A DNA stretch of 64,000 bases, taken from UHGV virus genome UHGV-0371537, one strand, 5' to 3'. Below, one piece after another: positions 6,023 through 45,306 of the stretch; within the stretch, counting starts at the first letter, position 1; each line of letters begins with the position of its first letter. Under the pieces are notes generated by a model that ran no database searches, was not told where the DNA came from, and worked only from the letters and a program-made list of their open reading frames with translations. Source of the DNA: a virus. Both the position numbers and the translations under genes were made by a program.

Positions 6023-6030
6023 TATTTATA
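6023..6030 (-). promoter_or_regulatory. T4-type late promoter box TATAAATA
   Basis: Plus-strand tatttata 6023-6030; 35 nt upstream of minus-strand ATG 5987. Confidence 0.5.
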
Positions 6031-22122: not shown

Positions 22123-22191
22123 GTAACTCACCAACACTCCCCGCCGCCTTCAATCTACGAGGGCGGCGTATAATATGTTCCGAGACTAATC

Positions 22192-30980: not shown

Positions 30981-30988
30981 TATTTATA
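30981..30988 (-). promoter_or_regulatory. T4-type late promoter box TATAAATA
   Basis: Plus-strand tatttata 30981-30988; 29 nt upstream of minus-strand ATG 30952. Confidence 0.5.
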
Positions 30989-31001
30989 ACGAGGAATGAA
31001 A

Positions 31002-31526
31002 ATGCGCGGATTCTGTTTTAGCGAAATTGGCAAAGAACTGTCGATACAATATCCAGACCCCAATACAGACTTCTTTATTTTCTTGTCTGACTATGCCCAG
31101 AAAGAGAATATTAGTCACATTGCGATGAAGTACGAAGATTATAAATTTTGTCGATTGGGTGTTAAGGATCTCTTGCGCTTCGGACTGTGTGTCATTATCG
31201 TAGATCAAACCTATAGCCCCATTGATGATGAAGAAGTCCTTCCTGTTTTCGTACATCGCAATATCAACACTCTGGATACACATTTTCCTGGGTGTGTGGT
31301 CGTTGGTGAGCTGGTTCCTTATTTCCACCGTTTGCGGAAGTTGGAACAAATTAAAAGTTATTTTCAAGATGGCGTGGGTCAATATAAGATGAACGTCCTC
31401 GGTAGTGGATGGAAAGTGTTGTCAACAGCTGGTGGCACCGACTATATCAAAATGCGGGTCTATGGTTATGACGTGGACCGCGATTATGAACTGGAGAAAA
31501 GTAATGCAAAAAGAAAACGCCGTTGA
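31002..31526 (+). CDS. hypothetical protein
   Basis: Second ATG chosen for RBS spacing (gagga); divergent from 30146-30952. Confidence 0.45.
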   Translation: MRGFCFSEIGKELSIQYPDPNTDFFIFLSDYAQKENISHIAMKYEDYKFCRLGVKDLLRFGLCVIIVDQTYSPIDDEEVLPVFVHRNINTLDTHFPGCVVVGELVPYFHRLRKLEQIKSYFQDGVGQYKMNVLGSGWKVLSTAGGTDYIKMRVYGYDVDRDYELEKSNAKRKRR

Positions 31527-32046: not shown

Positions 32047-32637
32047 ATGAAATATTGCGGAATCGACTACTCATATGGTTGTCCATCCCTGTGCTTCTGG
32101 GATGACAAAGACCCTCTTGATTTTGACCACCTGCGCTTCTACGCATATTACACTGTGGAGAAGTACTGCTCTCAAATCCGTCAGAACATCCTTATCATGA
32201 AACAGCCGAAGTGGGAGACTCCAGAAGAGCGCTTCTACAACATCTGTAAATGGGCTGAGGCTGTCCTGTTGACCGAGAAACCGGATGTGATCACTCTTGA
32301 GGGGTATGCTATGGGCAACTCCAAGAACTCCAACAACATCTGCCAGACAGCAGAGAACACTTCTCTATTGAAGCAAGTTCTGCGTCGCCATAACCTGGAG
32401 TTTCAGATTGTGACACCTTCTCATGTTAAGAAGATGTTTACAGACAAAGGCAACGCCGATAAGATCGCCATGATCGCCCACTTCGAAACCCTGTTCAATG
32501 TTAATATGCGCGGTATAATGGATATGTTGGAAGTTAAGGATCCCAAGCCTATCGATGACCTCGTGGATTCGTTTGCAATCATGTCTTGCGGTTCTTACTT
32601 CATTGAGAATAATCCAGACTTCAACAGAGGTGTATGA
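32047..32637 (+). CDS. RuvC-like (RNase H-fold) nuclease, candidate Holliday junction resolvase
   Basis: N-terminal MKYCGIDYSYG (GID catalytic Asp), ITLEGY, DDLVDSFAIM resemble RuvC/YqgF catalytic arrangement. Confidence 0.45.
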   Translation: MKYCGIDYSYGCPSLCFWDDKDPLDFDHLRFYAYYTVEKYCSQIRQNILIMKQPKWETPEERFYNICKWAEAVLLTEKPDVITLEGYAMGNSKNSNNICQTAENTSLLKQVLRRHNLEFQIVTPSHVKKMFTDKGNADKIAMIAHFETLFNVNMRGIMDMLEVKDPKPIDDLVDSFAIMSCGSYFIENNPDFNRGV

Positions 32638-33762: not shown

Positions 33763-34800
33763 ATGGGTAATTTATTTGATCGTCTGAAGCAGTCCCGTGG
33801 TCAACAGGCCGACGCAATGCAGGCGCGTCTGGCACAGCAAGGCCAGAAGTCCGGCTTCCAGAAGGATCCTCGCATCTGGAAATGGACTTGGAATAAGGAA
33901 GGTATTTCTCAGAACACCATCCGCTTCCTGCCAGTTCCGCTGGTAGACGTCAAGGCACAAGAAGAAGGAACGATCGATAAAGATCAGATCCTGACTCCTT
34001 GCGCCATGATCATGAAGCATCAGTTCCAGGGACCTGGTGGTTGGTACATCGAAAACTCACCTCAGACGTTCGGCAACGACGACCCGGTGCGTGACCATGA
34101 CCGTCCGCTGTGGGCGCAACAGAAAGAAACGAACGACGAAAAGCTGAAGGACGTGCTGAAGAAACGTCTGCCAGACACCAAATACTACGCCAACATCCTG
34201 GTGATCGAAGATGTCAACGTACCGGAAAACAACGGCAAGGTCTTCCTGCTGGAGTTTGGTAACGCCATCAAGAAAATCTTGGACCAGGCGCAGAATCCTA
34301 AGTTCCCGACCGACCCTAAATTCGACCCGTTCGATCTGTGGGAAGGTGCCAACCTGAACCTCAAGCTCTTCGGTGAGCAGAAGAAGTTCGGCAACTGGGA
34401 AGGTCTGGTGGCTAACTTCTCCAACGTCAGCTGGGCGGCTCCGGCTCCGCTGAGCGAAGACGAAGCCTACATGGAAGACGTGTGGTCTCGTGAACATAGC
34501 CTGTTTGAATTCTTCAACCCGGCGAATTTCAAGAGCTACGATGACCTGGAGAAACGCCTGCGCAAAGTGCTGGCGATTCCTGATGGTCAGCCTCTGGTTG
34601 AAGGTGGTGCGGCTACTATGGCGCATGCCCCTACGAACCAGGCTCCAGCACAACAGCCTGTTAAACAACAGCCAACTGCTCAAGACAGCCTGAACCAACA
34701 GCAATCACAACCTTCGCAGTCTGCTGTTAATCATCAGACGCCGGATCCTAAAGCAACAGGGTCTATCGAAGACTTTGAGCAGTTCCTCAAAGATAACTGA
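33763..34800 (+). CDS. 32: single-stranded DNA-binding protein gp32
   Basis: IRFLP, YYANILVIEDVNVPENNGKVF, LWEGANLNLK match T4 gp32 (VIRFLP, YWANILVV...PENEGKVF, PWEGANF); acidic/Gln-rich C-terminus. Confidence 0.9.
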   Translation: MGNLFDRLKQSRGQQADAMQARLAQQGQKSGFQKDPRIWKWTWNKEGISQNTIRFLPVPLVDVKAQEEGTIDKDQILTPCAMIMKHQFQGPGGWYIENSPQTFGNDDPVRDHDRPLWAQQKETNDEKLKDVLKKRLPDTKYYANILVIEDVNVPENNGKVFLLEFGNAIKKILDQAQNPKFPTDPKFDPFDLWEGANLNLKLFGEQKKFGNWEGLVANFSNVSWAAPAPLSEDEAYMEDVWSREHSLFEFFNPANFKSYDDLEKRLRKVLAIPDGQPLVEGGAATMAHAPTNQAPAQQPVKQQPTAQDSLNQQQSQPSQSAVNHQTPDPKATGSIEDFEQFLKDN

Positions 34801-35825: not shown

Positions 35826-36527
35826 ATGGCAAAGAACACAGCTGGTGAAGAAGATCCGTTGCTGTTCCCGGCCGAGATGGACGCCCCCGAGCTGGTCAAG
35901 CGTTACATCCGCAAGTACCGTCAACACTTCGGTCCAGAGGCGAAGCGTAACATTCGTCGTTCCCATACGTGGTTCATGGAGCGTGTGTCCAAAGACGCCA
36001 ACTTGTCTCCGAACCATATGAAGCAGGCGTTTGCCGACCATAAACGCCCGGTACAGGGTGTGAGATATGTGGTGGGGCGTATGTTCTATTTCAAATATGA
36101 CGCCCTGACCAAGAATGAACTTCCGTACTGGGATATGTACCCTCTTGTGTTCTTCTTCAACTTTGCCAAGGGTGATGGTATTACATTCGGGGAGAAGGGT
36201 GTAACTTATCTGTGGGGATTGAACATGCATTACTTGCCACCGAAGCTCAGGCTGCTGGTGTTCGAAGATCTGATTAAGTTACGTAACGAAAGAGCGTATC
36301 GTTCAAAGACGCGCCTGAAACTCACTTGGGCTGCTCTGAAGCGTTTCGCCAACCACCCATTGTACAATCACTGCGTGAAGTTGTACCGTGCTGACCAGTT
36401 CCGTTCACAGTTGTATGAGATCGAACCACAGTACTGGGAAATCGTTCTCTTCATGCGCACTGCCCGCTTCCAGAAACAGAGTCAGATGTCTGTCTGGAAA
36501 GATGCCCGCCGAGTACACAAGAAATAG
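35826..36527 (+). CDS. hypothetical protein
   Basis: aaggag RBS; basic protein. Confidence 0.5.
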   Translation: MAKNTAGEEDPLLFPAEMDAPELVKRYIRKYRQHFGPEAKRNIRRSHTWFMERVSKDANLSPNHMKQAFADHKRPVQGVRYVVGRMFYFKYDALTKNELPYWDMYPLVFFFNFAKGDGITFGEKGVTYLWGLNMHYLPPKLRLLVFEDLIKLRNERAYRSKTRLKLTWAALKRFANHPLYNHCVKLYRADQFRSQLYEIEPQYWEIVLFMRTARFQKQSQMSVWKDARRVHKK

Positions 36528-36591: not shown

Positions 36592-37335
36592 ATGTCACAA
36601 ATCTATCGTCTGTTTGGGCTGGATTTCACACCAGCTCGTCTTGATGTGAAACTGACCACCTTCGAACCAACCGGATTTGAAGTGGGGTGCGCTCTGGGGT
36701 TTAATCGCCAGGGTAAATCTGTCCGTGAACAAAACATCTTGGATGTCTTGGGCGTTGAGTGGGATAGCCCTACCGCCTTGGATTTAGAAGATCAGGTCAA
36801 GTATGGGAATCAAGAAATCGCAGACTTCTTGCGTGATGTCTTGGCTGGCTACGAACACGCAAAATCCCATGTGAAAATGGCACAAGAAGCGTGTCTCAGA
36901 CTATCACATTGCCTGTATTACCTTGGCCGCCACCGCAGTGATATGCAAATCGATTTCCCTGTCAATGTTCTGGAGCAATTCTCCAAGACTGAGTTTTACC
37001 TGGCGCAGGCTGATGGTGTGGTCATGAAAGCGAGTGATGTGTTCAAGCACACCGCGAACGTGTCCAACGGGCATTTGCTGGTTGGGTGTGATCAGGTTGA
37101 ACTGAAGATTGACCCAGACATGGAATATGACCAGAACACCTGTCGGGCGATTCACAATTACATCAGCGTGATTGTTGAAACTCTGTACAGTGCGATTGAA
37201 GAAGTCATGGCCACTGAACAAAGGGAAGAAGTGATTCGCAGAGTTCGGGAAAACGTCGAAGCCAGAGTGAAACTGCAGTTCACACCATCTGAATATTCAG
37301 AAGACATCCCCAACTTCTACTTGCTGGATAAGTGA
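36592..37335 (+). CDS. hypothetical protein
   Basis: ATG in context ctatatcATG. Confidence 0.5.
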   Translation: MSQIYRLFGLDFTPARLDVKLTTFEPTGFEVGCALGFNRQGKSVREQNILDVLGVEWDSPTALDLEDQVKYGNQEIADFLRDVLAGYEHAKSHVKMAQEACLRLSHCLYYLGRHRSDMQIDFPVNVLEQFSKTEFYLAQADGVVMKASDVFKHTANVSNGHLLVGCDQVELKIDPDMEYDQNTCRAIHNYISVIVETLYSAIEEVMATEQREEVIRRVRENVEARVKLQFTPSEYSEDIPNFYLLDK

Positions 37336-37448
37336 ATAAAACTTGTTTTCAATACTGACGTTGAAAGTTAATATTCACGCAAGTTCGCGCTCCGCTTGGC
37401 GGGGCGCTGTTTAACATGAAGGTGTTAACTTCTTTTCAATAAAAAGTG

Positions 37449-37477
37449 GTTTACATCTATGAAAAATGCAGTATATT
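37449..37477 (+). promoter_or_regulatory. T4-early/sigma70-type promoter GTTTAC-N17-TATATT
   Basis: Read directly: GTTTAC 37449-37454, 17-nt spacer, TATATT 37472-37477; about 70 nt upstream of ATG 37548. Confidence 0.55.
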
Positions 37478-37547
37478 ATGTTCTCACTACACAGTCAGAA
37501 CAGCAATATGCCGCGAAGACGGTCTTAATAACGAAAGGGTTTTTATT

Positions 37548-38444
37548 ATGTCATATATTCTTCATGTAGAATCTGGTTCTAAATTTGATATTGAAGGCAA
37601 AGACGTTGCGGCTATCCAGGCCGAGATCAAGGCCGCAGGCCTGCTGATTGGCAACGTTACCCTGCGCCGTATGGTTGAAGGTGCTCTTGAATCTGCTAAC
37701 GGCTTCGAACTCATCGAAGGTCTGAGCGAAGAAGAGCGACAGGAAACTCAGGAAGCTCTGGCGCAAGCACAAGAGCAGGCTGAAGCCGTGGAAGCACTGA
37801 ACGTAGCCGACACCGTAGCCGATGAAGCGCCGATTTCTGCTGACGCCACTTCTGGTATCGTTGTCGATTCTCAGGACGTGAAACCTGCCGAAGGTGATCA
37901 GGCGGCTGACACTGGCGCAACCACCGCATCCTCCGATGCTATCAAAGATGCCGTTGCCGAAGCCCTGAAAGAAGGCGATCAACCGTCCGACGCGAAAGTG
38001 AGTTCCCTGGCGTCTTCTATGCTGAAAGAAGCGGCGAAGGGTAAAACCCTGACACCTATGGCATCACAGGAAGAGCGTAAGCGCCGTCACACCAAACGCG
38101 AAGAAATGGTAGAAGCCGCTCGTGCGTCCAACCACGGTCCAATCCTGGCTGCCATTGAAGCAGGCGTCGTGCCGGGTGTGTTCCTCAGCTATGTTAACCC
38201 TGATATGCGCTGGTTCCAATTCCCAGTCACAGAACTGGCAGACCCAGAGAACCTGCATGCCCGCACTAACACATACGTTGACGTCGCGCCTATCGTTTCC
38301 GGCGGCTGGGGCTTCAGTCTGTACGTGAACGGCAAATCCTTCACTAAGCGTCAGAAAATCAAAGAGGCCGATGCCGAGTCTCTGGTGAACGCAATCAATG
38401 CCTGGTTGCCTCAGGCGCTGGCCGAAGCGAAAGCTGCTGCTTAA
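37548..38444 (+). CDS. acidic early protein (unknown function)
   Basis: Behind strong promoter GTTTAC-N17-TATATT; long Asp/Glu/Ala-rich low-complexity linker; terminator follows. Confidence 0.55.
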   Translation: MSYILHVESGSKFDIEGKDVAAIQAEIKAAGLLIGNVTLRRMVEGALESANGFELIEGLSEEERQETQEALAQAQEQAEAVEALNVADTVADEAPISADATSGIVVDSQDVKPAEGDQAADTGATTASSDAIKDAVAEALKEGDQPSDAKVSSLASSMLKEAAKGKTLTPMASQEERKRRHTKREEMVEAARASNHGPILAAIEAGVVPGVFLSYVNPDMRWFQFPVTELADPENLHARTNTYVDVAPIVSGGWGFSLYVNGKSFTKRQKIKEADAESLVNAINAWLPQALAEAKAAA

Positions 38445-38474
38445 TTTAAGTTCAGAATCTGTTCAATAGATGAA

Positions 38475-38505
38475 GGGGCTGCTATAATAGCAGCTCCTTT
38501 TGTTT
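38475..38505 (+). terminator. rho-independent terminator whose loop contains TATAAT
   Basis: 8-bp stem (one G-U), loop tataata, then ttttgtttatt. Confidence 0.6.
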
Positions 38506-38518
38506 ATTGGAGCAGTCT

Positions 38519-39184
38519 ATGTCCTACTCCCTCAAGGGGTTGCTCAAGCGCCCCGTCCACACATTCATTAAACCGCCTGTCGTAAAGGGGATATACCCGG
38601 CACGAGGGCAAATCTATTACGTCAAAGGCTCGAATGGTAGCGGTAAATCTACCGTGCCTTCCCAGCTGGCGGAGAGGGATCCTCAGGCGTATGTCGTGAC
38701 GCATGATAGCAAGATCATGCTGACGGTCTGTCCGTCATTCAACGTGGTCTGCATTGGCAAATATGATAAGTCAAAGTCCAAGGGGGTTGATTCTCTGAAG
38801 GATACTGAACAAATGCTATTCGCCCTGAGCATCGCCGATCTACCTGAATATCAGGTATACGATGTGATCTTTGAAGGCATCATCCCGTCAACACTGCTGA
38901 GTTCCTGGATTCCCCGCCTGACGCGCCCACCGCGCGAACTGGTTGTCCTCTTCATGGACACCCCTCTTGAAACCTGCATCGCCCGTGTTAAATCACGTAA
39001 CGGCGGTGCGGACTTCAATGAGAGCCTCGTGGTAGAGAAGTGGGGGCGCGTTCAAGACCACCGCCAGCGCCATAAGGGCTTGTTCCCTACGGTGGCCGCA
39101 GGTATGATGAAGTCTCACGGTCTAACAGTAGACCAGGCTGTAATGGCATTCCTCTGTCGTGATTTTGGGGATATTGATGACTAA
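38519..39184 (+). CDS. P-loop NTPase, kinase-like
   Basis: Walker A YVKGSNGSGKST (close to polynucleotide-kinase-type GxxGSGKST); ggag RBS. Confidence 0.55.
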   Translation: MSYSLKGLLKRPVHTFIKPPVVKGIYPARGQIYYVKGSNGSGKSTVPSQLAERDPQAYVVTHDSKIMLTVCPSFNVVCIGKYDKSKSKGVDSLKDTEQMLFALSIADLPEYQVYDVIFEGIIPSTLLSSWIPRLTRPPRELVVLFMDTPLETCIARVKSRNGGADFNESLVVEKWGRVQDHRQRHKGLFPTVAAGMMKSHGLTVDQAVMAFLCRDFGDIDD

Positions 39185-39749
39185 GAAATTGGTCTATGGG
39201 GTTGGTCACAACGACATGCCCTATGGCACAGCTACGGTAAATGGAAAGGCAACCGACGAATATTCTGCTTGGTCGGGGTTGTTACAAAGGGCGTATGATC
39301 CAAAATACCATGCCAGAAATCCGACTTATGTTGGTTGCTCTGTCGTGGAAGAGTGGCATTTTCGATCGAAATTCGTTAAGTGGTTTGGTGTGAACTACGT
39401 TAAAGGATGGTGTCTAGACAAGGATATTTTGAATCCTGGAAACAAAGTTTATGGCCCAGACACATGCATCTATGTGCCCGTTTGGATCAATACATTTGCC
39501 AATGATAGCGGCGCAATAAGGGGTGGTCTCCCAATAGGAGTTTCATTAAACAAGACAACCGGAAAATATCTTTCTCAGTGTAAATCCGGTGGTAAAGTGA
39601 TAAATCTGGGTTATTACGACGACCCCAAAGAAGCGCACGAGGTTTGGTTGAGATTTAAGCTAAACCTGGTTTTGGAAAGGAAGAAAGACATGGATAGTAT
39701 AGACCATCGTATTTATCCAAATCTGGTTCATATTTTGCAAAGTAAATGA
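39177..39749 (+). CDS. homing-endonuclease-like protein with AP2-like DNA-binding motif
   Basis: A+T-rich gene; KVINLGYYDDPKEAHEVWL resembles AP2/HNH_3-associated DNA-binding motif. Confidence 0.4.
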   Translation: MTKKLVYGVGHNDMPYGTATVNGKATDEYSAWSGLLQRAYDPKYHARNPTYVGCSVVEEWHFRSKFVKWFGVNYVKGWCLDKDILNPGNKVYGPDTCIYVPVWINTFANDSGAIRGGLPIGVSLNKTTGKYLSQCKSGGKVINLGYYDDPKEAHEVWLRFKLNLVLERKKDMDSIDHRIYPNLVHILQSK

Positions 39750-45263: not shown

Positions 45264-45277
45264 GTAATTCAATAAAG

Positions 45278-45306
45278 CAGATCATAGGGTATAATTCTAT
45301 GATCTG
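45278..45306 (+). promoter_or_regulatory. perfect 10-bp stem-loop with TATAAT in the loop
   Basis: cagatcatag / ctatgatctg; loop ggtataatt; not followed by a T-run. Confidence 0.4.

What the first reader, a model, noticed from the sequence alone, without database searches (positions are those of the whole stretch)
37449..38444. Strongest early promoter drives an acidic low-complexity protein
The best sigma70/T4-early match in the window (GTTTAC-N17-TATATT) precedes a 298-aa protein with a structured N-terminus, a long Asp/Glu/Ala-rich linker and a C-terminal domain, ending at a strong terminator. Highly expressed acidic early proteins in phages are often DNA mimics or host-factor inhibitors.
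Basis: inference. Interest (0 to 1): 0.4.

Follow-up and report, generated by a model that had tools for sequence, protein, structure and literature searches.

The report
Conserved early acidic-linker phage protein
This is a real, self-contained early gene of an Ackermannviridae (ViI-like) phage that encodes a conserved two-domain protein joined by a floppy, negatively charged linker; its function is unknown, and it does not look like a classical rigid DNA mimic.

Summary
GTTTAC-N17-TATATT (37449-37477) is the best intergenic, correctly oriented sigma70/T4-early-type promoter in the window. It drives a 298-aa ORF (37548-38444; pI 4.6, net charge -20), which is followed by a very strong terminator (38472-38500).

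The window comes from an Ackermannviridae phage. The gene is the ortholog of LIMEstone1 ORF047, CBA120 orf076 and Sajous1 gp29, where it is already annotated as hypothetical; LIMEstone1 also annotates the promoter and terminator.

The family is small: 29 representatives among 1.84 billion proteins, with no Pfam, NCBIfam or PDB sequence hit. Its layout is conserved:
- a small N-terminal alpha/beta domain with no convincing known fold;
- a disordered linker of 61-290 aa whose sequence varies but whose negative charge is kept;
- a near-invariant basic helix;

The gene always lies in the replication/recombination/nucleotide module, next to the 5-hmdU DNA kinase where that gene exists. It persists in Vibrio phage VAP7, which lacks the kinase. 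Sajous1 gp29 gave 10 spectra in purified virions.

My best reading is an abundant early adaptor or regulator of DNA-transaction proteins. The rigid-DNA-mimic idea is not supported, and host-factor inhibition remains open. Interest is moderate.

The parts
37387..37407 (+). GC-rich hairpin (GCGCUCCGC-UUG-GCGGGGCGC) after the upstream 247-aa gene. It is the probable terminator that isolates the unit on its 5' side.
   Evidence: -17.9 kcal/mol, z -2.0. The T-tail is weak (UGUUUAAC), so the terminator scan did not list it.
37430..37448 (+). A/T-rich block upstream of the -35 hexamer (TTCTTTTCAATAAAAAGTG), resembling an UP element. It contains a TTCAAT box.
   Evidence: The block is conserved in Aglimvirinae and Kuttervirus orthologs. 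Its function is inferred.
37449..37477 (+). Sigma70/T4-early-type promoter: GTTTAC(A) -35, 17-nt (16-nt) spacer, TATATT -10.
   Evidence: 10/12. The hexamers are the most conserved intergenic blocks in 7 loci from 5 lineages. Sigma70-like sites also lie upstream of distant orthologs. LIMEstone1 annotates it as a 'putative early promoter'.
37478..37547 (+). Stretch between the -10 hexamer and the start codon; roughly its last 64 nt would be the 5' leader. Shine-Dalgarno AAGGG at 37535-37539. No conserved secondary structure.
   Evidence: no consensus pairs; z -0.8. The distance from the -10 hexamer to the ATG is 47-70 nt in the 9 of 13 orthologous loci where the best sigma70-like match lies in the conserved promoter position. 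The transcription start (~37484) is inferred.
37548..38444 (+). CDS of 298 aa plus stop. Ortholog of LIMEstone1 ORF047, CBA120 orf076 and Sajous1 gp29; member of phrog_3905.
37548..37721 (+). N-terminal domain, aa 1-58 (beta-beta-alpha-alpha-beta). Family motif: IG..TLR.L..G....A.GFE.I.
37722..38066 (+). Acidic Asp/Glu/Ala/Ser/Thr-rich linker, aa 59-173 (net charge -16). It is mostly disordered, with two semi-conserved short helices near its C-terminal end (aa 127-141 and 148-163).
   Evidence: pLDDT below 50 for aa 88-129 and 142-147. Hypervariable with many indels. Length is 61-290 aa, yet net charge is -10 to -36 in 32 of 33 members.
38067..38126 (+). Near-invariant basic helix, aa 174-193 (EERKRRHTKREEMVEAARAS).
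   Evidence: E176 R177 K178 R179 R180 H181 K183 R184 E185 are invariant in 25 sequences. One of these arginines (R179, by position in the alignment) is the only invariant column in the alignment of distant members.
38127..38441 (+). C-terminal alpha/beta domain, aa 194-298 (helix, five strands, long C-terminal helix).
38472..38510 (+). Intrinsic terminator: 13-bp stem with 6 G-C pairs, 3-nt loop, then a U-rich tail.
   Evidence: (-27.7 kcal/mol, z -7.5, 0 of 200 shuffles fold as well). LIMEstone1 annotates it as a terminator.
38462..38488 (+). TTCAAT-N15-TATAAT motif embedded in the terminator hairpin. It is a candidate phage-specific promoter, with a box at about -30, for the downstream 5-hmdU DNA kinase operon.
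   Evidence: 4 copies in the window against 0.04 expected. This copy is conserved in 5 other loci. The EspM4VN paper, PMC7283392, reports the motif. Its function is inferred.

Best explanation
The locus is a monocistronic early transcription unit with the layout hairpin, host-type promoter, gene, strong terminator. It belongs to an Ackermannviridae phage.

It encodes an abundant, non-enzymatic, lineage-specific protein that belongs to the phage's DNA replication/recombination/nucleotide-metabolism module.

Proposed mechanism (inferred, not shown): the protein acts stoichiometrically as an adaptor or regulator of DNA-transaction proteins.
- The C-terminal alpha/beta domain has a T3SS-chaperone/YbjN/PsiB-like fold. 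Together with the invariant basic helix in front of it, it would grip a partner protein or a polyanion.
- The small N-terminal domain would be a second, separable interaction module.
- The long polyanionic disordered linker would act like the acidic tails of gp32, SSB or gp2.5. That is, it would compete electrostatically with DNA for basic surfaces, either the protein's own basic helix or a partner's DNA-binding site.
- This amounts to a floppy, charge-based 'DNA-like' element, not a rigid DNA mimic.

Candidate partners include phage UvsX, gp32 or gp41, the nucleotide and hypermodification enzymes, and a conserved host protein such as RecA, SSB or RNA polymerase.
For: Shown by tool results:
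- Promoter, ORF and terminator are present.
- The promoter is conserved across genera and in distant orthologs.
- The domain plan is conserved across the family.
- Linker length ranges 61-290 aa while net charge stays at -10 to -36 in 32 of 33 members. Composition is conserved without sequence conservation, which is typical of functional acidic disordered regions.
- The linker has low pLDDT and both domains have high pLDDT.
- No catalytic family is hit.
- Position in the genome is fixed, always upstream of UvsX, a small ORF and the gp41 helicase: next to the HMUDK and TS-like genes in Aglimvirinae, Kuttervirus and the two Vibrio phages examined (1.244.A, VPALA); between ADDT and a TS-like gene in a metagenomic relative; and between PolB/NT5C and UvsX in Vapseptimavirus.
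- Per-genus record counts equal those of the HMUDK gene in enterobacterial Ackermannviridae, consistent with a core gene.
- The protein is made and is abundant: Sajous1 gp29 gave 10 spectra against 5 for the SSB (PMC10892097).
Against: - No partner is known, and nothing here tests binding.
- T3SS chaperones are usually acidic with hydrophobic grooves, whereas this domain carries many conserved basic residues.
- Conserved synteny may reflect inheritance only, not function.
- The Sajous1 virion signal could mean the protein is packaged.
- No transcriptomic data were found to confirm early timing.
Confidence: 0.4

Rival explanations
1. Host-factor inhibitor. The protein is made at once from a host-type promoter to neutralise a conserved host DNA-binding protein or defence. 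One version has a PsiB-like C-domain blocking RecA. Another has the polyanionic linker titrating a restriction, nuclease or nucleoid protein.
For: - The promoter is of the early type and is conserved.
- The protein is strongly acidic.
- In enterobacterial members the gene lies close to gp2, the end protector that blocks RecBCD.
- N-domain relatives occur in early-like regions full of small ORFs in unrelated phage contigs.
Against: - The acidic segment is disordered, hypervariable and not a fixed DNA-shaped surface.
- There is no sequence or profile link to PsiB, Ocr, ArdA, Arn, Ugi or any Pfam family, and no plasmid homolog.
- The gene is core and fixed in position in phages of Enterobacteriaceae, Vibrio and Aeromonas. 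It does not sit in a variable accessory island.
Confidence: 0.22
2. Early DNA-binding transcription regulator, functionally analogous to T4 MotA but not homologous to it. The C-terminal domain plus basic helix would bind DNA, for example the phage-specific TTCAAT box at about -30. The N-domain would contact RNA polymerase, switching transcription from early to the next class.
For: - The protein has two domains joined by a linker and is expressed early, like MotA (established knowledge of T4).
- A TTCAAT-N14-16-TATAAT motif occurs 4 times in the window against 0.04 expected, with the box centred near -30 as in MotA-dependent promoters. One copy sits immediately downstream of this gene and is conserved.
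- A TTCAAT box also lies just upstream of the gene's own -35 hexamer.
- In other phages the N-domain is fused to a DUF3489-like winged-helix domain instead of this C-domain. This suggests the C-terminal half is the module that binds nucleic acid.
- Many basic residues are invariant at aa 177-272.
Against: - The DUF3489 hits are below Pfam's threshold (E about 0.006).
- VAP7 keeps a family member but has no TTCAAT-N13-16-TATAAT motif anywhere in its genome.
- An activator does not obviously need a polyanionic linker of 60-290 aa or SSB-like abundance.
Confidence: 0.12
3. Accessory factor of thymidine hypermodification. It would be a scaffold or DNA-targeting subunit for the 5-hmdU DNA kinase and the downstream transferases.
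For: - The gene lies immediately upstream of the 5-hmdU DNA kinase (PF18748, E 1.6e-106) in this window and in all enterobacterial Ackermannviridae, Vibrio 1.244.A, VPALA and a metagenomic contig.
- In another metagenomic phage it is flanked by HMUD2, HMUDK_hel and ADDT on one side and a TS-like gene on the other.
- Per-genus record counts match those of HMUDK in enterobacterial phages.
Against: - Vibrio phage VAP7 has a family member but no HMUDK, even at tblastn E <= 1. It has a canonical thymidylate synthase, DHFR and thymidylate kinase.
- HMUDK occurs in Pseudomonas, Bordetella, Bacillus and Stenotrophomonas phages whose genera are not among those named in the tallies for this family.
- In vitro reconstitution of the ViI pathway used gp67, gp160, gp226, gp243 and gp247 only (PMC8989533).
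- A strong terminator separates the gene from the kinase operon.
Confidence: 0.1
4. Virion-associated internal or ejected protein, packaged with the DNA and delivered into the next host.
For: - Sajous1 gp29 gave 10 spectra from CsCl-purified virions.
- That is more than the bona fide virion protein gp2 (3 spectra) and several baseplate proteins (6-8 spectra).
Against: - The same preparation contained clearly non-structural proteins: SSB 5, thymidylate synthase 1, dUTPase 1, clamp loader 1.
- LIMEstone1 flags MS-confirmed structural proteins, and ORF047 is not flagged.
- Gel-band MS of EspM4VN found 18 proteins, 16 of them structural and two uncharacterised; I did not check whether the ortholog is among them.
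- The promoter is sigma70-type, and no TATAAATA late motif lies upstream.
- The N-terminus forms part of a folded domain. It is not a cleavable capsid-targeting peptide.
Confidence: 0.1

Closest known systems
PsiB (plasmid SOS inhibitor, PDB 3nct) and the wider T3SS-chaperone/YbjN fold class (AvrPphF ORF1 1s28, AmyR 5fr7, DR_1245 4h5b, SicP, Spa15)
   Different: There is no sequence or profile similarity. This domain is preceded by an invariant basic helix and carries many conserved basic residues. It sits at the end of a 298-aa multi-part protein. Dimerisation and partner binding are untested.
Structured DNA-mimic proteins of phages and plasmids (T7 Ocr, ArdA, T4 Arn, PBS2 Ugi)
   Same: Early expression, strong net negative charge (pI 4.6), no enzymatic motifs.
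   Different: Those mimics are compact folds with a fixed array of carboxylates. Here the acidic part is disordered, varies 61-290 aa in length and is not conserved in sequence. No homology was found.
Acidic C-terminal tails of T4 gp32, T7 gp2.5 and bacterial SSB
   Same: A polyanionic disordered segment whose charge rather than sequence is conserved. A plausible role is competing with DNA and recruiting partners. The genomic setting is among replication and recombination genes, with gp32 about 3 kb upstream.
   Different: Here the acidic segment is an internal linker between two folded domains. It is much longer, and there is no OB fold.
T4 MotA (middle-promoter activator)
   Same: Early gene. 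Two domains joined by a flexible linker. The phage has a promoter class with a box at about -30 that needs a recognising factor.
   Different: No sequence or fold similarity was found to either MotA domain. DNA binding is untested.
phrog_3905 and its GenBank entries: LIMEstone1 ORF047 (CCD57608.1), CBA120 orf076 (AEM91792.1), Sajous1 gp29 (QPX74458.1)
   Same: These are true orthologs: 55-88% identity, the same position, and the same promoter and terminator.
   Different: None of them has an assigned function. The only published experimental datum I found is MS detection of Sajous1 gp29.

Membership tests
Sigma70 / T4-early-type promoter | -35 GTTTAC/TTGACA-like hexamer, 16-18 nt spacer, -10 TATAAT-like hexamer, A/T-rich upstream region, intergenic location and correct orientation | tested here: met
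   10/12 match at 37450-37477. Conserved in orthologous loci. Activity and timing were not measured.
Intrinsic (factor-independent) terminator | Stable GC-rich hairpin followed by a U-run | tested here: met
   38472-38500: 13 pairs, -27.7 kcal/mol, z -7.5, then UUUUGUUUAUU.
Structured DNA-mimic proteins (Ocr/ArdA/Arn/Ugi type) | Compact, conserved fold that presents a fixed pattern of acidic side chains imitating the DNA backbone | tested here: not met
   The acidic segment has pLDDT below 50, many indels and a length of 61-290 aa.
Structured DNA-mimic proteins (Ocr/ArdA/Arn/Ugi type) | Strong net negative charge | tested here: met
   Net charge -20, pI 4.6.
Structured DNA-mimic proteins (Ocr/ArdA/Arn/Ugi type) | Sequence or structure homology to a known mimic | tested here: not met
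Structured DNA-mimic proteins (Ocr/ArdA/Arn/Ugi type) | Binds and blocks a DNA-binding protein | not testable with these tools
   Needs pull-down or inhibition assays.
T3SS class I chaperone / YbjN / PsiB fold class | Alpha-beta-alpha sandwich with a five-stranded antiparallel sheet | tested here: inconclusive
T3SS class I chaperone / YbjN / PsiB fold class | Sequence-family membership (Pfam CesT, YbjN or PsiB models) | tested here: not met
   None of the 27 C-domain sequences hits these models, even at E <= 10.
T3SS class I chaperone / YbjN / PsiB fold class | Homodimer that binds an extended partner polypeptide | not testable with these tools
   No multimer prediction or experiment was available.
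T4 MotA-type activator | Homology to the MotA N- or C-terminal domain | tested here: not met
T4 MotA-type activator | Sequence-specific binding to a -30 box and contact with sigma70 | not testable with these tools
   A candidate box (TTCAAT) exists, but binding is untested.
Thymidine hypermodification pathway (5-HMUDK, aGPT-Pplase/AADT, PLP and rSAM enzymes) | Homology to a pathway enzyme | tested here: not met
   No Pfam or NCBIfam hit. The neighbouring gene, not this one, is PF18748.
Thymidine hypermodification pathway (5-HMUDK, aGPT-Pplase/AADT, PLP and rSAM enzymes) | Strict co-occurrence with 5-HMUDK | tested here: not met
   Present in VAP7, which lacks HMUDK. Not seen in the genus tallies for Pseudomonas, Bordetella and Bacillus phages, which have HMUDK.
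T4-like replication accessory proteins (gp59 loader, UvsY) | Homology, or being the only candidate for that role | tested here: not met
   No family hits. Relatives that carry this gene separately annotate a helicase loader and a recombination protein that may correspond to UvsY (Table in PMC10892097).

The most novel reading that the evidence does not exclude
The protein is the missing sigma-appropriation-type activator of Ackermannviridae. It would be a MotA analogue of unrelated fold: the basic helix plus C-terminal alpha/beta domain would read the phage-specific TTCAAT box at about -30, and the N-terminal domain (with the acidic linker) would engage host RNA polymerase. This would define a new class of phage transcription-switch factor.
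Probability: 0.1. Interest if true: 0.7.

Novelty: new variant of a known kind. Interest (0 to 1): 0.38.

Why it matters
Ackermannviridae (ViI, CBA120 and Limestone-type phages) are widely used for biocontrol and therapy, yet half of their genes are unassigned. This gene appears to be a core gene of the family and is strongly expressed. It has a conserved early promoter, and it sits at the junction of the replication, recombination and thymidine-hypermodification genes.

Identifying its partner would fill a gap in how these phages organise DNA metabolism or take over the host. It could also show how a disordered polyanionic linker, rather than a rigid DNA mimic, regulates DNA-binding proteins. 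If the protein turns out to be the factor for the -30 TTCAAT promoters, it would explain the family's unexplored middle-transcription programme.

Tried and rejected
Searches that found nothing:
- Pfam, NCBIfam and PHROG scans of the protein and of each domain alignment. The only result was phrog_3905, unknown function.
- Profile searches of PDB sequences with the whole protein, the N-domain and the C-domain. Hits were chance-level S20 and V-ATPase-G matches to Ala/Lys/Glu-rich helices.
- A full HMMER scan of 1.84 billion representatives found 29 proteins, none of them annotated.
- BFVD Foldseek returned only orthologs, all uncharacterised.
- tblastn against plasmids found nothing.
- Literature searches for Ackermannviridae transcriptomes, anti-defence genes or orf076 found no data on this protein.

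Ideas rejected:
- A regulatory structure in the 5' leader, in the manner of gp32. There was no consensus structure, and z was -0.8.
- Obligate linkage to thymidine hypermodification, because of the VAP7 counter-example.
- Linker growth by tandem repeats. Only one trivial 9-nt repeat was found.

Technical dead ends:
- The afdb50 fold library was unavailable.
- The search for related loci with the C-domain alignment failed because no block was conserved enough.
- The word-indexed search with the N-domain profile returned only one fragment.
Full report
**What the window is.** The region around the finding matches Ackermannviridae phages at 87-89% DNA identity. The best hits are Enterobacter phage EspM4VN, the Dickeya Limestonevirus group and Shigella Agtrevirus. 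The gene order in the window is:
- gp32 SSB (33763-34800);
- a tail-tube-initiator-like gene on the minus strand;
- gp2 DNA end protector (35826-36527);
- a 247-aa hypothetical protein (36592-37335);
- the target (37548-38444);
- a 5-hmdU DNA kinase (38519-39184; PF18748, E 1.6e-106);
- an inserted HNH endonuclease;
- a thymidylate-synthase-like gene, dNMP kinase, dUTPase, a hypothetical protein, UvsX, a small ORF and the gp41-type helicase.

LIMEstone1, ChubbyThor, CBA120 and Sajous1 have the same order, apart from the inserted HNH gene.

**Check of the observation.**
- GTTTAC-N17-TATATT lies at 37449-37477. Read as TTTACA-N16-TATATT it scores 10/12.
- It is the only GTT[TG]AC-type site in the 64 kb. 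It is intergenic, correctly oriented and preceded by an A/T-rich block.
- One site scores higher (11/12, 31165 minus strand). It lies antisense inside a gene that matches phrog_3957 over its full length. 'Strongest' therefore holds for plausible sites only.
- Only 0.7% of random 130-nt windows reach 10/12.
- The real start is ATG 37548, with AAGGG 8 nt upstream. All orthologs begin MSYILH, so the GTG-started 332-aa ORF is an artefact.
- The product is 298 aa, 31.6 kDa, pI 4.6, net charge -20 and 17% Ala.
- The terminator at 38472-38500 is very strong: -27.7 kcal/mol, z -7.5.
- A hairpin at 37387-37407 (-17.9 kcal/mol) follows the upstream gene. The unit is therefore monocistronic.
- LIMEstone1 already annotates the homologous promoter as one of only five 'putative early promoters', and it annotates the terminator too.

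**Is the promoter more than chance?**
- In an alignment of the upstream regions from the window, LIMEstone1, CBA120, Sajous1, a Taipeivirus, a Nezavisimistyvirus and a Yersinia phage, the -35 block (AAAGTGGTTTACA) and the -10 block (AGTATATTA) are the best-conserved parts. The leader diverges.
- Of 13 orthologous loci, 11 have a match of at least 9/12 upstream and 9 have at least 10/12. In 9 of them the distance from the -10 hexamer to the ATG is 47-70 nt.
- These loci include relatives with only 25-40% protein identity, such as VPALA and the metagenomic contigs L007 and L011.
- The two Vapseptimavirus-type loci lack such a site. Those phages encode their own sigma factor.
- The 5' leader has no conserved structure.
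- I found no transcriptome for any member of the family. Early timing is therefore inferred from the promoter type.

**The protein family.**
- Close homologs are numerous but all lie in Ackermannviridae genomes or metagenomes, and all are labelled hypothetical.
- A profile scan of 1.84 billion cluster representatives found only 29 proteins at E <= 0.001.
- tblastn finds the family in 343 phage records: Salmonella 162, Vibrio 62, Klebsiella 45, Escherichia 29, Dickeya 19, Serratia 10 and others.
- Foldseek against viral models adds Aeromonas phiA8-29 and the Vibrio phages VAP7 and Kuja, all uncharacterised.
- There is no Pfam, NCBIfam or PDB-sequence hit for the whole protein or for either domain, and no plasmid homolog.

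**Anatomy.** The alignments and two AlphaFold2 models agree on the following layout.
- aa 1-58 form a beta-beta-alpha-alpha-beta domain (pLDDT 83-90).
- aa 59-173 form an acidic, Ala/Ser/Thr-rich linker. It is disordered at aa 88-129 (pLDDT 30-40), with two semi-conserved short helices near its end.
- aa 174-193 form a basic helix, ERKRRHTKREEM, with nine invariant residues.
- aa 194-298 form an alpha/beta domain (pLDDT 74-88) that is almost invariant among enterobacterial phages.

Across 33 family members the linker ranges from 61 to 290 aa and shows no sequence conservation. Even so, its net charge is -10 to -36 in 32 of them. Conserved composition without conserved sequence argues that the negative charge itself is functional. 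It also argues that the segment is a flexible polyanion and not a shaped surface.

**Folds.**
  - T3SS class I chaperones (AvrPphF ORF1, ExsC, Spa15, SicP, SycN);
  - YbjN-family AmyR;
  - Deinococcus DR_1245;
  - the FP domain;
- These are non-enzymatic protein-binding modules. The similarity is at fold level only, and no profile links them.
- My visual impression of a MerR/Xis-type winged helix was not borne out.
- Two weak family hits (P0146 and P0147, E 3e-5 and 2e-4) share only the N-domain. They carry a DUF3489-like winged-helix region instead of the C-domain (E about 0.006, below Pfam's cut-off). They lie in regions of small ORFs in unrelated phage contigs. The N-domain therefore appears to be a separable module.

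**Context.** The gene is always in the same module.
- In enterobacterial Ackermannviridae, Vibrio phage 1.244.A, VPALA and contig L006, it lies immediately upstream of the 5-hmdU DNA kinase.
- In contigs L007 and L008 it lies between HMUD2/HMUDK_hel/ADDT and a TS-like gene, with PolB upstream and dUTPase, UvsX and DnaB downstream.

This suggested a link to thymidine hypermodification, but the link is not obligatory.
- The Vapseptimavirus phages VAP7 and VP-1 and contig L012 have the gene between PolB/NT5C and UvsX, with none of these enzymes nearby.
- The whole VAP7 genome has no HMUDK, even at tblastn E <= 1, and encodes a canonical thymidylate synthase, DHFR and thymidylate kinase.
- Conversely, HMUDK occurs in Pseudomonas, Bordetella, Bacillus and Stenotrophomonas phages, genera that are not among those named in the tallies for this family.
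- The published in vitro reconstitution of the ViI pathway did not need this protein (PMC8989533).
- The arrangement PolB ... target ... UvsX, small ORF, gp41 parallels the T4 interval 43-42-beta-gt-uvsX-40-41 (my knowledge of the T4 map). That interval houses DNA-precursor and modification genes.
- Relatives that carry this gene annotate a helicase loader and a recombination protein that may correspond to UvsY elsewhere in their genomes, so the protein is not filling those roles.

**Expression evidence.**
- Sajous1 gp29 is the positional and sequence ortholog.
- In LC-MS/MS of CsCl-purified Sajous1 virions it gave 10 spectra. For comparison, the major capsid protein gave 924, the SSB 5, gp2 3, several baseplate proteins 6-13, and thymidylate synthase, dUTPase and clamp loader 1 each (PMC10892097).
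- This shows the protein is made and is at least as abundant in that preparation as the SSB. It does not show whether the protein is a contaminant bound to DNA or is truly packaged.
- LIMEstone1's record marks MS-confirmed structural proteins, and ORF047 is not among them.

**Interpretation.**
- The classical DNA-mimic reading is not supported, because the acidic part is a variable disordered linker and no homology exists.
- The robust facts are these: an early-type promoter under selection; abundance; no catalytic signature; two conserved globular modules; a conserved basic helix; a charge-conserved polyanionic linker; and a fixed place among replication, recombination and nucleotide genes in phages of diverse hosts.
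- These facts fit best with a stoichiometric adaptor or regulator of DNA-transaction proteins, in which the linker acts like the acidic tails of gp32, SSB or gp2.5 (confidence 0.4).
- The rivals and their confidences are:
  - inhibitor of a conserved host factor, including a PsiB-like anti-RecA role (0.22);
  - a MotA-like but non-homologous activator for the phage-specific -30 TTCAAT promoters (0.12);
  - a hypermodification accessory (0.10);
  - a packaged internal protein (0.10).

None of these can be decided without experiments.

**Novelty and interest.** The gene, its promoter and its terminator are already annotated in GenBank as hypothetical or putative. What this analysis adds is the following:
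- the domain anatomy;
- the charge-conserved linker;
- the fold assignment of the C-domain;
- the family's narrow distribution and invariant synteny;
- the separation from the hypermodification pathway;
- the link to the Sajous1 proteomic datum.

It is a solid target for experiments but not a surprise in itself, so I score interest at about 0.38.

Noticed in passing
window 22149-22174, 32494-32519, 38462-38488, 45268-45295 (+): TTCAAT-N14-16-TATAAT occurs 4 times on the plus strand, against 0.04 expected. Three copies (22149, 38462, 45268) lie a short distance upstream of a plus-strand ORF start; 32494 lies within or between ORFs. The box is centred near -30, the geometry of T4 MotA-dependent middle promoters. 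The 38462 copy sits inside the target's terminator hairpin, just before the 5-hmdU DNA kinase gene. It is conserved in CBA120, Sajous1, KP6F1, phiEa2809 and YEP3, and the motif is absent from the whole VAP7 genome. The EspM4VN paper lists the motif as a 'unique regulatory motif'. The factor that recognises it is unknown.
   Followed up: partly
window 39159-39749 (+): An HNH endonuclease ORF (phrog_953, E 2.9e-79; weak AP2 domain hit) is inserted between the 5-hmdU DNA kinase gene and the thymidylate-synthase-like gene, overlapping the kinase gene's end. LIMEstone1, ChubbyThor, CBA120 and Sajous1 have no gene at this position, so this looks like a homing-endonuclease insertion.
   Followed up: partly
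window 38519-39184 (+) and many public records: The 5-hmdU DNA kinase (PF18748, E 1.6e-106) is annotated as 'terminase small subunit' or 'thymidylate kinase' in many phage records, and in PHROGs as phrog_800. This appears to be a propagated mis-annotation.
   Followed up: partly
Enterobacter phage EspM4VN (LC373201.2, 157686-158967): The ortholog is split into two annotated ORFs, of 222 and 112 aa in the BFVD models. This may be a frameshift or a sequencing error in the linker region.
   Followed up: no
P0146, P0147, P0149; loci L009 (5738-6655) and L022 (4322-5185): The N-terminal domain also occurs in roughly 290-305-aa proteins of unrelated phage contigs. There it is joined by a Lys/Ala/Pro-rich linker to a DUF3489-like winged-helix region (E about 0.006, below Pfam's threshold). 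These genes sit in regions of many small ORFs and have long upstream intergenic gaps.
   Followed up: partly
Erwinia phages phiEa2809 (L020 601-2031) and Bue1; protein P0125: The linker is expanded to about 290 aa, giving proteins of 472-476 aa, while both terminal domains are kept. This is the extreme of the length variation.
   Followed up: partly
window 31137-31165 (-): The highest-scoring sigma70 match in the window (TTAACA-N16-TATAAT, 11/12) lies antisense inside the phrog_3957 gene (30996-31526, plus strand). It is probably a chance match, but an antisense promoter is not excluded.
   Followed up: partly
window 30981-30988 (-): A T4-type late promoter, TATAAATA, lies just upstream of the baseplate-hub gene's likely ATG. 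Only two exact copies exist in the 64 kb (the other at 6023-6030, minus strand). The second motif reported for this phage group, CTAAATAcCcc, is absent from the window even when one mismatch is allowed.
   Followed up: no
Sajous1 virion proteome (PMC10892097, Table 6): CsCl-purified virions yielded many spectra for proteins annotated as non-structural: RegB endonuclease 31, a ParB N-terminal domain protein 11, SSB 5. Either the preparation carried abundant contaminants, or some of these proteins are packaged or mis-annotated.
   Followed up: no
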